A stretch of 29,656 bases of DNA from a virus (lineage: Duplodnaviria > Heunggongvirae > Uroviricota > Caudoviricetes): the IMG/VR virus record IMGVR_UViG_2718218453_000002; one strand, 5' to 3'. Shown one piece after another: positions 21,656-22,551 of this stretch (positions within the stretch are counted from its first letter, which is position 1; every line of letters starts with the position of its first letter). Under the pieces are notes generated by a model. It ran no database searches. It saw only the letters and a list, made by a program, of their open reading frames with translations, and was not told where the DNA came from. A program made the position numbers and the translations under genes.

Positions 21656-22085
21656 GTCCAAAAACCTCGAATTATTTAACCAGCAGACGGCGGAAATTTT
21701 TGCGGTGTTATGGGATAACTTCCCGGTGCCGCAGGTCATCACCTACGAAAAATTTAACGCCGCGCTACCTGATGACTACTTTGACCAACTTAACTCACCG
21801 GAAATGAAAGCACTGAATCAGTTGCGTAGTGTGGTTGAGGGTACATTCACTTTTCTCAGTGAAAACGGCTACATCCAGTATGAAACAGACCATCAGACTT
21901 ATTTTCGGGATGTGCGCCTGACCGAGAAAGCACTCGCCGTGCTCAACAAAAAGCCCGAGGCACTCGGCGGTAATGAAACGATGGGCGATAAGATTATCAG
22001 TGCGGTGAAAGACGGGACACCCGGAGTTATTGCCGGTGCGGTGACAAACCTGCTTTCGCTCGGTGTCAATCTGGTAACCAACTAA
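21654..22085 (+). CDS. Hypothetical protein with C-terminal hydrophobic segment
   Basis: 143-aa ORF with ATG start and AAGGGAA Shine-Dalgarno 6 nt upstream; C-terminus GTPGVIAGAVTNLLSLGVNLV looks like a membrane tail anchor. Sits in the cos-to-A interval where P2 carries tin and old. Confidence 0.55.
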   Translation: MSKNLELFNQQTAEIFAVLWDNFPVPQVITYEKFNAALPDDYFDQLNSPEMKALNQLRSVVEGTFTFLSENGYIQYETDHQTYFRDVRLTEKALAVLNKKPEALGGNETMGDKIISAVKDGTPGVIAGAVTNLLSLGVNLVTN

Positions 22086-22086
22086 C

Positions 22087-22147
22087 GCCTCGCGTGGCTC
22101 GTTGTTCAACCCCGTCAGCACTGAAAGCGAGTTTCAGCGCTGACGAC
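22087..22147. repeat. Repeat copy A: conserved about 32-nt motif followed by a hairpin
   Basis: GCCTCGCGTGGCTCGTTGTTCAACCCCGTCAGC followed by hairpin CAGCACTGAAA-GCGAG-TTTCAGCGCTG; sits between the convergent 3' ends of the genes at 21654-22085 and 22153-22362. Confidence 0.4.
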
Positions 22148-22152
22148 GTTTG

Positions 22153-22362
22153 CTATCGTCGACGTGGTGGGGGTGCGTATTGTGTCGACCTGCTGATGCT
22201 ATCCAGCTTGCCGTAATTATCCCTGACTATTTCGGCACACCCGACCAGCTCTGCGGGTGTCAAATTCTCATTGACCATTATCTGCTGCAGACGATGAACG
22301 ATGGCCATCAGTATGATGCTTTTAGTTTTGTGCTGCGGAATTTCACCTGGTAGTCGATGCAT
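22153..22362 (-). CDS. Hypothetical small protein (69 aa)
   Basis: ATG start preceded by a strong Shine-Dalgarno (GAGGGTGA); lies between the two repeat copies. Confidence 0.5.
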   Translation of the reverse strand: MHRLPGEIPQHKTKSIILMAIVHRLQQIMVNENLTPAELVGCAEIVRDNYGKLDSISRSTQYAPPPRRR

Positions 22363-22491
22363 ATTATCACCCTCAATGAATTTTAATCAGTGCCGTCAAA
22401 ACGCCACTATAAAACCATCTCAGGTCATGCCTCATTAATCATGGGCGTGTCATCAATAGCACATTGAGAAATTTTGAAAGGCAGGACTTAA

Positions 22492-22551
22492 GCCTCGTGG
22501 GCTCGTTACTCAACCCCGCCGACGCAAAAAGCTAGTTTTTGCGCCAGCACG
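22492..22551. repeat. Repeat copy B: conserved about 32-nt motif followed by a hairpin
   Basis: GCCTCGTGGGCTCGTTACTCAACCCCGCCGAC (about 27 of 33 identical to copy A by hand alignment) followed by hairpin GCAAAAA-GCTAG-TTTTTGC; immediately downstream of the DinI-like gene on the minus strand. Confidence 0.4.

What the first reader, a model, noticed from the sequence alone, without database searches (positions are those of the whole stretch)
22083..22551. Two copies of a conserved motif-plus-hairpin element at gene 3' ends
A roughly 32-nt motif (GCCTCG.GTGGCTCGTT..TCAACCCCG.C) occurs twice, about 405 bp apart in direct orientation, each immediately after a TAA and each followed by a different stable hairpin with no U-tract. 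Copy A lies between two convergent genes; copy B follows the DinI-like gene and is preceded by what looks like a relic gene 3' end. These look like module boundaries: recombination junctions, protein-binding sites or RNA-processing/stability elements rather than canonical terminators.
Basis: seen in the sequence. Interest (0 to 1): 0.45.

Follow-up and report, generated by a model that had tools for sequence, protein, structure and literature searches.

The report
Conserved two-hairpin element ending phage SOS operon

Summary
The window is a 186/PSP3-like phage. The two copies are 22082-22155 and 22487-22559, on the minus strand, in the same sense as DinI/tum and replication gene A.

Each copy starts 2-7 nt after a stop codon and has two parts:
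- **HP1:** an 18-19 bp hairpin whose sequence varies.
- **Tail:** GAACAACGAGC-NNN-GCGAGGCGUUAG, which forms a second small hairpin (HP2) with a tandem G·A pair and a free loop.

HP1 covaries strongly and is rich in G·U on the minus strand only, so that strand folds, as RNA or as single-stranded DNA.

The element is absent from Rfam and unannotated. It occurs once or twice per prophage, in about 9% of complete E. coli genomes and in other Enterobacterales. Five gene families precede it, and at least 32 different cargo contexts begin exactly after GUUAG.

Copy B is the degenerate inner copy. It was left when an [orf69 + element] unit came to lie downstream of [DinI + element].

Related phages without the element have ordinary terminators at the same spot. 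My best reading is a sense-strand transcript 3'-end or intercistronic barrier. Its retention fixes the left edge of the cos-proximal hotspot. It is not a canonical terminator, attC, REP or origin mimic. Function is inferred, not shown.

The parts
22082..22155 (-). Copy A: the complete, canonical element (stop codon of orf69, HP1, one-base linker, HP2, terminal AG). It is the distal, last copy before the variable region.
   Evidence: Covariance model R1: 93.4 bits, E 1e-26. Sequence read.
22108..22150 (-). HP1 of copy A: AAC..CG-stem, loop CUCGC (22127-22131), closing on CGGGGUU. About 18 bp including G·U pairs.
   Evidence: Minus-strand fold is better than plus-strand as RNA and as DNA. In relatives, 11-12 of 18 pairs change on both sides and 94.6-95.5% of cells pair; 0 of 500 shuffles reach the observed percentage paired, cells changed on both sides or covariation score.
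22084..22106 (-). HP2 of copy A: AAC-AA-C-GA-GC / loop CAC (22094-22096) / GC-GA-G-GC-GUU. Nearly invariant in sequence, with a tandem G·A (CGAG/CGAG) and a freely varying 3-nt loop. G22107 is the single linker base. A22083-G22082 end the element.
   Evidence: RNAalifold predicts this helix. The G·A / A·G positions are replaced by U-A and C-G (CUCGC/GCGAG) or by C-G and C-G (CCCGC/GCGGG) in other lineages, and loop length is 3-5 nt.
22487..22559 (-). Copy B: the inner, degenerate copy, 7 nt after the DinI stop. HP1 (22512-22554, loop CUAGC) is intact. The tail (22487-22511) has substitutions and a 1-nt deletion, and ends CUUAAG instead of CGUUAG.
   Evidence: R1: 64.0 bits, E 1e-17. Sequence. 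In relatives the DinI-proximal copy scores lower than the distal one in 23 of 25 two-copy loci.
22153..22362 (-). orf69 (PSP3 gp37 / WPhi orf92 family, phrog_11386, function unknown): the gene bracketed by the two copies. Its stop codon lies 2 nt before HP1 of copy A.
   Evidence: The unit [orf69 + element] is shared with the P2-type phages WPhi and P2-EC67; homology starts at the orf69 start codon.
22562..22792 (-). DinI-like gene (tumB), followed by copy B.
   Evidence: Pfam PF06183, E 1.7e-17. PSP3 annotation names it tumB.
22796..22978 (-). tumA-like gene (phrog_1993), first gene of the SOS operon that reads towards both copies.
   Evidence: PSP3 annotation names it tumA, 'UV induction of prophage'.
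23000..23015 (.). LexA-box-like palindrome CTGTATATTTATACAG upstream of tumA. This is the p95-type SOS promoter region that would drive sense transcription through both copies.
   Evidence: Sequence. Phage 186 is annotated with a LexA site and promoter p95 at the equivalent place. Assignment here is by analogy.
21654..22085 (+). orf143 (phrog_2266): the first cargo gene of the variable region, convergent with orf69. Its stop codon TAA (22083-22085) lies inside the element's terminal CTAAC.
   Evidence: Midge has the same gene next to its single element.
21294..21330 (-). Canonical hairpin plus T-run, homologous to the 186 terminator t95b. It now lies about 750 nt from the element because the orf143 module sits between them.
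   Evidence: Sequence. 186 annotation and sequence. Homology to the 186 cos-proximal segment resumes 746 nt downstream of the element in the window.

Best explanation
The two repeats are copies of one discrete, roughly 72-74 nt cis element that works on the minus strand, in the sense of the tumA-DinI-orf69 SOS operon and of gene A. It most probably acts in the transcript.

**Anatomy (shown)**
- The stop codon of the preceding gene lies 2-7 nt upstream.
- HP1 is an 18-19 bp hairpin. Its base (AAC...GGGGUU) and loop (CUYGY) are conserved, while the middle covaries freely and is rich in G·U.
- One unpaired G follows.
- HP2 is a short hairpin with an almost invariant sequence (GAACAAC GAGC nnn GCGAG GCGUUAG), a tandem G·A and a free loop.
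- Conservation stops dead after GUUAG.

**Proposed mechanism (inferred)**
- The element is the 3'-end or intercistronic barrier of the early/SOS transcription unit.
- The stacked hairpins would attenuate read-through and block 3'-to-5' decay. They may also provide a processing site at the GUUAG edge. Together these would set the level of Tum/DinI/orf69 message and uncouple it from whatever cargo lies downstream.
- The invariant HP2 is the part likely to be recognised by a factor that has not been identified.
- Because phages keep the element, every gain, loss or swap of cargo next to cos ends exactly at its last base. That would make it the fixed left border of the hotspot and give homologous exchange between phages something to anchor on.

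**The pair in this window (inferred from comparison)**
An [orf69 + element] unit, shared with P2-type phages, came to lie downstream of a resident [DinI + element]. The inner copy (B) has since decayed in its tail while keeping HP1.
For: **Structure and strand**
- HP1 pairs in 94.6-95.5% of cells. 11-12 of its 18 pairs change on both sides. 0 of 500 shuffles reach the observed percentage paired, cells changed on both sides or covariation score, and slid controls pair only 28-45%.
- HP1 has 210 G·U cells against 33 A·C cells. The sense strand is the more stable in 94 of 97 distinct elements, mean -25.4 versus -17.2 kcal/mol. The window copies behave the same way.
- In HP2, the tandem G·A is replaced by Watson-Crick pairs, including the compensatory CUCGC/GCGAG to CCCGC/GCGGG change. 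The loop is free in sequence and length.

**Position**
- 116 of 130 elements have a same-strand ORF whose stop codon ends 38-45 nt (in most cases) before the tail, that is at the foot of HP1.
- Only five upstream gene families occur: orf69, DinI, 186 orf97, TumA and a 66-aa protein.
- In a sample gathered through the DinI protein and not through the motif, 71 of 78 loci carry the element within 1.5 kb downstream.
- All five of the seven remaining loci whose DinI match is full-length and at least 64% identical have an ordinary hairpin plus T-run in the ~140 nt after the DinI stop, immediately after it in three. This is positional substitution by a terminator.
- The tail is more conserved than the adjacent coding DNA: 0.91 versus 0.71 identity in the orf69 group.

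**It is read through**
- In 186 the annotated p95 terminator t95b lies 25 nt beyond the element.
- In several phages a downstream gene starts 0-3 nt after GUUAG, with GAGG of HP2 at Shine-Dalgarno distance.

**Border of the hotspot**
- 32 different downstream contexts begin at the same base.
- The other border of the variable region is scattered. It clusters about 125 bp from the cos end.

**Origin of the pair**
- Two-copy loci always have about 405 nt spacing around orf69.
- The distal copy scores higher in 23 of 25 two-copy loci.
- WPhi and P2-EC67 share [orf69 + element].
Against: - No transcript ends, cleavage sites or half-lives are available, so the RNA-level role is inferred.
- Single-stranded DNA of the same polarity would show the same G·T asymmetry.
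- A plain exonuclease barrier does not need a 30-nt invariant sequence. The conservation of HP2 therefore points to a specific partner that I could not identify.
- P2 itself lacks the element, so it is dispensable for phage growth.
- The sense strand has no U-tract, so any termination would have to be unconventional or partial.
- The first collection scan required 15 bases of the motif, which inflates the apparent invariance of those bases. The DinI-based sample corrects this only within one phage group.
Confidence: 0.45

Rival explanations
1. A single-stranded DNA signal. The folded strand is the one nicked at ori by the A protein and displaced during rolling-circle replication. A hairpin with a conserved 3' tail could then act as a single-strand initiation or priming site for complementary-strand synthesis, or as some other site recognised on ssDNA.
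For: - The nick at P2 ori is annotated on the A-sense strand. The element folds on that same strand, about 1.3 kb downstream of ori in the window.
- The strand asymmetry is also seen with DNA energy parameters.
- A hairpin plus a conserved 3' tail is the layout I recall for plasmid ssi sites. That is my own knowledge and was not tested here.
Against: - P2, which replicates the same way, has no copy.
- G·U-rich stems, with 3 of 13 pairs in the commonest variant, suit RNA better than DNA.
- The element is tied to the stop codon of the preceding gene, and ordinary terminators replace it in phages that lack it. Both point to transcription.
- I saw no primase start motif; the template trinucleotide CTG is absent from the conserved tail.
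Confidence: 0.12
2. A cis-acting riboregulator that recruits a factor. HP2, a sequence-invariant hairpin with tandem G·A, would bind a host or phage protein or act on RNA polymerase. HP1 would serve as a scaffold. The element would control transcription or translation entering the cargo region, as a put-like antiterminator, a pause or termination signal, or a translational operator for the next gene.
For: - Two hairpins separated by one unpaired base is also the layout I recall for HK022 put RNA (my own knowledge).
- HP2's base is invariant and its loop is free, which is the pattern expected of a protein-binding hairpin.
- GAGG in HP2 sits 8-9 nt before the start codon of genes that begin 0-3 nt after the element.
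- The element lies exactly at the entrance to the cargo region.
Against: - In 186 the p95 transcript is annotated as ending at t95b, 25 nt after the element. That argues against antitermination.
- Many contexts have no same-strand gene downstream.
- No candidate partner gene is shared by P2-type and 186-type carriers.
- Rfam has no match.
Confidence: 0.2
3. A DNA recombination site. The element would be the target of a site-specific recombinase or a preferred crossover point, and would be conserved because it mediates capture and exchange of cargo cassettes, in the manner of an integron attC or attI.
For: - The junction after GTTAG is precise in 32 contexts.
- The element ends in GTT-A-G and begins with AAC, reminiscent of attC R boxes.
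- In this window the orf69 unit is bracketed by two direct copies.
- The title of Nilsson et al. 2004 (cited; the paper is not held) proposes site-specific recombination for this P2 region.
Against: - There is one canonical copy per phage, and the cargo carries no partner site.
- The opposite border of the variable region is scattered, at reference positions 1 to 177, with no repeat or duplication.
- Only five gene families precede the element.
- All two-copy loci have the same ~405-nt orf69 arrangement, as one old event would give.
- No dedicated recombinase was seen next to it.
- G·U asymmetry and HP2 covariation are not needed for a double-stranded site.
Confidence: 0.1
4. A terminator for the opposite direction only. 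On the plus strand the hairpin is followed by GTTTG, GTTTAT or GTTCTCT, so it might simply stop transcripts of cargo genes that converge on the SOS operon, such as orf143 here.
For: - A short T-rich run follows the hairpin on the plus strand.
- In the window, P2-EC67 and P2-EC58 the element lies between convergent genes, and in the first two it is all or nearly all of the spacer.
Against: - Plus-strand stems carry A·C mismatches where the minus strand has G·U.
- The most common downstream context (32 of 129 elements, 186-type) has no cargo gene before the t95b terminator and cos.
- This does not explain the invariant HP2, which plus-strand polymerase would meet before the hairpin.
Confidence: 0.08

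Closest known systems
Intrinsic terminators and 3' stabiliser hairpins at operon ends (for example 186 t95a and t95b)
   Same: - It lies directly after the stop codon of the last gene of an operon.
- It has a strong GC-rich hairpin.
- In related phages without the element the same place holds an ordinary hairpin plus T-run.
   Different: - The sense strand has no U-tract.
- A 30-nt sequence-invariant second hairpin follows.
- In 186 the annotated terminator lies 25 nt further on.
- Some downstream genes start 0-3 nt after it, so it is read through.
PeSL regulatory cassettes of T4-type phages (PMC2839356, PMC4122927)
   Same: Both are conserved non-coding stem-loop modules that sit at the borders of non-essential, rapidly exchanged genes. 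In PeSLs, recombination between copies shuffles or deletes the gene in between, as described in the abstract of PMC2839356. Here orf69 is bracketed by two direct copies.
   Different: - PeSLs combine a strong early promoter with an effective terminator and occur in many copies.
- This element has no promoter-like site, occurs once or twice per genome, and has a different architecture.
- Recombination between its copies was not demonstrated.
REP/BIME-type extragenic palindromes and intercistronic RNase III sites of T7 (own knowledge)
   Same: Both are imperfect hairpins just after stop codons, inside operons. They protect upstream message or separate the fates of neighbouring cistrons.
   Different: - This is not a dispersed host repeat: 1-2 places per E. 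coli genome, always the prophage type of context.
- I saw neither the GTAG tetranucleotide in the element nor a RAYT-like gene beside it; neither was searched for.
- RNase III cleavage is untested.
HK022 put RNA (own knowledge; no sequence comparison made)
   Same: About 70 nt, two stem-loops separated by a single unpaired base, acting in cis in a phage early transcript.
   Different: - put lies just downstream of early promoters and suppresses terminators.
- This element lies at the operon's 3' end, and in 186 it is followed by a terminator that is annotated as used.
Integron attC sites
   Same: Both are imperfect hairpins at the 3' end of a gene, fold on one strand only, and lie at a cassette boundary next to a GTT.
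   Different: - I saw no integron integrase gene near it.
- There is no array.
- The cargo carries no site of its own.
- A long asymmetric conserved tail takes the place of the paired R''/L''-L'/R' boxes.

Membership tests
Rho-independent (intrinsic) terminator | GC-rich hairpin | tested here: met
   HP1 has 18-19 bp. The mean sense-strand folding energy is -25.4 kcal/mol.
Rho-independent (intrinsic) terminator | Run of U (about 5 of 8) directly 3' of the stem on the transcribed strand | tested here: not met
   In sense, HP1 is followed by GAACAACGAGC. The consensus scan reports no site for HP1 at either copy; its only call near copy B is a 5-pair sub-stem that uses HP1's own 3' arm as the T-run.
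Rho-independent (intrinsic) terminator | Transcript 3' ends map at the site | not testable with these tools
   No RNA data are available. In 186 the annotated terminator t95b lies 25 nt downstream of the element.
Any Rfam family | Match to a curated covariance model | tested here: not met
   cmscan of 20500-24000 on both strands at E up to 10 returns only two unrelated weak hits elsewhere.
Integron attC | Each cassette carries its own site, forming arrays | tested here: not met
   There are one or two copies per phage. The cargo after GTTAG has no second copy.
Integron attC | Integron integrase (IntI) and attI nearby | not tested
   No search for IntI was made. The only integrase-size ORF noted in the window lies at 28607-29656, at the far end.
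REP/BIME | Many dispersed copies per host chromosome | tested here: not met
   480 of 5426 complete E. coli genomes have it, with 1-2 places each. Sixteen species representatives have one copy each.
PeSL-type promoter-terminator cassette | Strong sigma-70 promoter joined to the stem-loop | tested here: not met
   There is no promoter-like site in or next to either copy. TTGAAC in the tail has no usable -10 at 16-18 nt, on my reading of the sequence.
PeSL-type promoter-terminator cassette | Copies flank non-essential genes, and recombination between them removes or moves the gene | tested here: inconclusive
   orf69 is flanked by two direct copies in this window, in 18 of the 110 motif-found loci and in 25 of the 71 DinI-found loci. 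Midge has one copy and no orf69. No clean recombinant pair was found.
P2/186 A-protein origin (nick site) | Conserved CTCGGAGTYCTGTCAATAAC after a hairpin, on the A-sense strand | tested here: not met
   Only a 7-mer, CGCCTCG, is shared with P2 ori. It is on the opposite strand and is absent from the ori of 186 and of this window.
RfaH ops element | GGCGGTAGnnTG on the non-template strand | tested here: not met
   The canonical tail ends GGCGTTAG, with T at position 5. Positions 9-12 fall in the variable flank. GGCGGTAG occurs in only two divergent variants, L090 and L112.
HK022 put-type antiterminator RNA | Polymerase that has transcribed it reads through downstream terminators | not testable with these tools
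   There is only indirect evidence against: 186 t95b, 25 nt downstream, is annotated as the p95 transcript terminator.

The most novel reading that the evidence does not exclude
The element is a new class of phage cis-regulatory RNA. In this reading the invariant tandem-G·A hairpin (HP2), stacked on a variable hairpin, recruits a host or phage factor or acts directly on RNA polymerase or the ribosome. It would serve as the gate between the SOS/early operon and the defence and cargo hotspot next to cos. It would then decide whether cargo is expressed on induction and would define where new cargo can be installed.
Probability: 0.2. Interest if true: 0.7.

Novelty: new variant of a known kind. 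Interest (0 to 1): 0.5.

Why it matters
P2- and 186-like prophages are common in enterobacteria. Their cos-proximal region is a documented reservoir of anti-phage systems (PMC9122126).

This element gives that hotspot a base-precise left border and a searchable marker, the covariance model built here. It is also a candidate regulatory RNA that is absent from Rfam and from the phage and E. coli records I inspected.

If it controls message stability or read-through, it sets the dose of the Tum antirepressor and DinI during SOS induction. It would also set how far induction spills into cargo genes. If it is only a retained 3'-end structure, it is still useful for annotating prophages, delimiting cargo and designing insertion sites.

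Tried and rejected
1. **Mimic of the A-protein origin (HUH nick site).** Only a 7-mer is shared with P2 ori. It is on the wrong strand and is not conserved in 186 or the window.
2. **Part of cos.** The distance to cos varies from about 210 to more than 3400 nt, and similarity to the cohesive end is trivial.
3. **Coding sequence.** The loop has 1-2 nt indels and there is no consistent frame.
4. **Promoter.** No acceptable -10 element.
5. **Pseudoknot between the HP1 loop (CUCGC) and the tail (GCGAG).** 91% of cells pair, but only through conserved or wobble changes. Several canonical elements lack the complementarity, and it competes with HP2.
6. **Alternative closing of the element by AACGCC with the terminal GGCGUU.** My reading of the variants shows no covariation.
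7. **Trans target inside the phage.** Complementary 9-mers occur at the rate seen with shuffled sequences. A fuller duplex scan timed out.
8. **RfaH ops, integron attC, REP.** See the membership tests.
9. **XerCD dif/cer site and tRNA fragment.** By eye, no resemblance to my memory of those consensus sequences. ARAGORN finds no tRNA in the window.
10. **Literature.** No paper in the library contains the motif string. Nilsson et al. 2004 and Odegrip et al. 2006, on the P2 variable region, are not held. I cannot say whether they described this sequence. Their GenBank records for P2-EC58 and P2-EC67 do not annotate it.
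Full report
**1. Where we are**

The window is a P2-family phage of the 186/PSP3 type. Its closest records are Escherichia phage Midge, Salmonella phages SI22, SW9, SEN1 and PSP3, and phage 186.

Reading the minus strand from right to left, the region contains:
- replication gene A (23092-25314);
- a LexA-box-like palindrome at 23000-23015;
- tumA (22796-22978) and the DinI-like gene tumB (22562-22792; Pfam DinI, E 1.7e-17);
- copy B;
- orf69 (22153-22362; PSP3 gp37 family);
- copy A;
- the convergent orf143 (21654-22085, plus strand) and a small ORF;
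- a hairpin plus T-run homologous to the 186 terminator t95b (about 21294-21330);
- the cohesive end (21120-21138).

These assignments rest.

**2.

The two stretches form a 45-nt direct repeat, 76% identical and 404 nt apart. The motif is expected 0.00 times by chance in the window.

The alignment shows that the similarity runs through the hairpins. The loops are alike and the stems differ by paired changes. This is therefore one element in two copies, not a motif followed by two unrelated hairpins.

**3. Which strand**

Folded as RNA, the minus strand gives perfect stems, with z scores of -2.8 and -3.3. The plus strand does not (z -1.4 and -0.4), because every plus-strand A·C mismatch is a G·U on the minus strand.

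Across 97 distinct elements from relatives:
- HP1 has 1428 Watson-Crick cells, 210 G·U cells and only 33 A·C cells.
- The sense strand is the more stable in 94 of 97, with a mean of -25.4 against -17.2 kcal/mol.

DNA energy parameters show the same bias. The polarity is therefore settled, but the choice between RNA and single-stranded DNA is not.

**4. Anatomy**

I built a covariance model from 34 non-redundant relatives. It finds exactly two copies in the window:
- copy A at 22082-22155, 93.4 bits;
- copy B at 22487-22559, 64.0 bits.

In sense the element reads as follows:
- the stop codon of the preceding gene;
- 2 nt in most relatives and at copy A, 7 nt at copy B;
- HP1, with base AAC..CG, a variable stem, loop CUYGY, and closing CGGGGUU;
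- one unpaired G;
- HP2, which is AAC AA C GA GC, a loop NNN, then GC GA G GC GUU;
- a final AG.

HP1 is paired in 94.6-95.5% of cells, and 11-12 of its 18 pairs change on both sides. No shuffle out of 500 reaches the observed percentage paired, cells changed on both sides or covariation score. Sliding the partners drops pairing to 28-45%.

HP2 is nearly invariant in most copies, so I looked for informative variants:
- Its two central positions are G·A and A·G, in the CGAG/CGAG context known for stable tandem G·A (my own knowledge).
- In other lineages these positions become U-A and C-G (CUCGC/GCGAG).
- In two sequences they become C-G and C-G (CCCGC/GCGGG), a compensatory change.
- The loop varies freely in sequence and has 3-5 nt.

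HP2 is therefore supported as a hairpin, though less strongly than HP1. A loop-tail pseudoknot is not supported beyond simple conservation.

**5. Distribution**

An exact-pattern scan of viral contigs gave 110 loci with the element besides the window. Because that scan required 15 motif bases, I gathered a second sample through the DinI protein alone.

In that second sample, 71 of 78 loci carry the element within 1.5 kb downstream, 25 of them twice. The tail flanks remain nearly invariant there.

Other searches gave these results:
- BLAST finds the element in 71 phage records from Escherichia, Salmonella, Klebsiella, Yersinia and Erwinia.
- These include the P2-type phages WPhi, P2-EC58 and P2-EC67, where it lies after orf92 or ORF85 in the orientation of gene A.
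- P2 itself has none.
- It occurs in 480 of 5426 complete E. coli genomes, at one or two places each.
- It occurs in 16 species representatives, all Enterobacterales, once each.
- Rfam has no match.
- None of the inspected records annotates it.
- The motif string occurs in no paper of the library.

**6. Context**

On the upstream side:
- 116 of 130 elements follow a same-strand ORF whose stop codon ends 38-45 nt (in most cases) before the tail, at the foot of HP1.
- These ORFs fall into only five families: orf69 (55), DinI (34), 186 orf97 (22), TumA (3) and a 66-aa protein (2).

On the downstream side:
- 129 elements show 32 unrelated contexts, which all start at the base after GUUAG.
- Some downstream genes start 0-3 nt after it. 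Examples are a protein beginning MGFPSPAQDY, which I read as UmuD-like (not searched against any library), and a family beginning MGGRDYNFQ.
- In those cases GAGG of HP2 lies at Shine-Dalgarno distance.

The other border of the variable region is not fixed. Homology to the 186 cos-proximal segment resumes at reference positions 1, 14-25, 37-40, 64-66, 77-89, 99, 144-148 or 169-177. There is a cluster about 125 bp from the cohesive end.

One border at a fixed base and one scattered border, with no repeat at the far side, is what selection for two needed elements would give: this one and the packaging site. It is not what a site-specific insertion system would give.

**7. The pair in this window**

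All two-copy loci have about 405 nt spacing around orf69. The distal copy scores higher in 23 of 25. Inner copies have decayed in several different ways, and two have lost HP1 altogether.

Homology between the window and the P2-type phages WPhi and P2-EC67 starts at or within 13 nt of the orf69 start codon and runs to the end of copy A.

The simplest history is that an [orf69 + element] unit came to lie after a resident [DinI + element]. The new distal copy kept the sequence-specific tail and the inner one relaxed.

Midge has DinI, one canonical element and then orf143, without orf69. It is not a clean recombinant of the window arrangement.

**8. What it does**

Three facts constrain the answer:
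- In 186 the element lies between the orf97 stop and the annotated p95 terminator t95b. In several phages a gene starts directly after it. Polymerase therefore passes it, and it is not a full terminator. It has no U-tract in sense.
- All five of the element-less DinI loci with a full-length DinI match of at least 64% identity have a canonical hairpin plus T-run in the ~140 nt after the DinI stop, immediately after it in three. So does 186 after tum, where t95a is annotated as a partial terminator. The slot the element occupies is thus one where a transcript 3'-end structure is wanted.
- The tail is more conserved than neighbouring coding DNA, and its conservation ends at a single base. A specific partner or a defined 3' edge is therefore likely.

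I conclude, by inference, that it is a sense-strand 3'-end or intercistronic barrier of the early/SOS unit. It would partly stop or process the transcript and protect the upstream message. HP2 would be the recognised part. The fixed border of the hotspot would be a by-product of the element being retained. My confidence in this is 0.45.

**9. Rivals**

- **A single-stranded DNA signal on the displaced strand of rolling-circle replication.** The polarity fits. However, P2 lacks the element, and its tie to stop codons and terminators points to transcription.
- **A factor-recruiting riboregulator.** This fits the invariant HP2 and the position at the entrance to the cargo. A put-like antiterminator is unlikely, given t95b in 186.
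- **A recombination site.** This fits the sharp junction and the bracketing of orf69. It fails on copy number, the scattered far border and the absence of partner sites.
- **A plus-strand-only terminator.** This fails on the mismatch pattern.

**10. Comparison and novelty**

The element works most like an operon-end hairpin or intercistronic stabiliser. As a boundary module it resembles the PeSL cassettes of T4-type phages (PMC2839356). It fails the defining features of intrinsic terminators, attC, REP, PeSL, ops and the A-protein origin (see the membership tests).

It lies at the entrance of the P2-family hotspot described by Rousset et al. (PMC9122126). In the passages my term searches returned, they do not mention it.

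Earlier work on the same P2 region (Nilsson et al. 2004) could not be read, so prior description cannot be excluded.

I rate it a new variant of a known kind, of moderate interest. It is a widespread, cleanly defined, unannotated structured element whose partner and mechanism remain to be found.

Noticed in passing
window 23470-23506 (minus strand): This is the replication origin inside gene A. A hairpin GGACGG-CAAA-GCCGTCC is followed by CTCGGAGTTCTGTCAATAAC. The tail matches 186 and P2, where the nick is annotated. The hairpin stems differ between the three phages but stay complementary.
   Followed up: partly
window 19426-21005 (minus strand): Two ORFs of 249 and 275 aa (phrog_8999 and phrog_13337, no Pfam match, function unknown) lie between the 336-aa ORF I take to be the portal gene and cos. 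The phage therefore carries cargo on both sides of the cohesive end.
   Followed up: partly
window 21654-22085 (plus strand): orf143 (phrog_2266) is annotated in phage Midge as similar to T7 5.5/5.7. Its stop codon is formed by the conserved last bases of the element (CTAAC).
   Followed up: partly
L166, L173, L174, L176, L220 (first 140 nt after the DinI stop): These DinI-carrying relatives lack the element and have ordinary hairpin plus T-run terminators in the ~140 nt after the DinI stop (immediately after it in three).
   Followed up: partly
L068 678-723 and L078 6127-6172: These are inner copies in which HP1 has been deleted down to its base, while a recognisable tail remains.
   Followed up: no
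L090 813-883 and L112 2714-2784: In these divergent variants HP1 is unrelated in sequence and length, and the tail ends GGCGGTAG, identical to the 8-nt core of the RfaH ops element. In L090 the next bases give 10 of 12 matches to GGCGGTAGCGTG.
   Followed up: partly
L006, L076, L106 (2 nt after the element): A gene whose product begins MGFPSPAQDY (which I read as UmuD-like; not checked against any library) starts 2 nt after GUUAG and follows a TumA-like gene. It looks like an SOS operon in which the element is intercistronic.
   Followed up: no
L001 1049-1080 (186 terminator t95a): The annotated partial terminator between tum and orf97 in 186 ends ...CATGGGGTTGTTTTG. It shares GGGGTTG with the 3' foot of HP1. 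Whether it is a derived copy of the element was not resolved.
   Followed up: no
L125 394-545 (P2-EC58): The element lies 74 nt from the end of a convergent reverse-transcriptase gene (ORF544), one example of defence cargo starting at this border.
   Followed up: no
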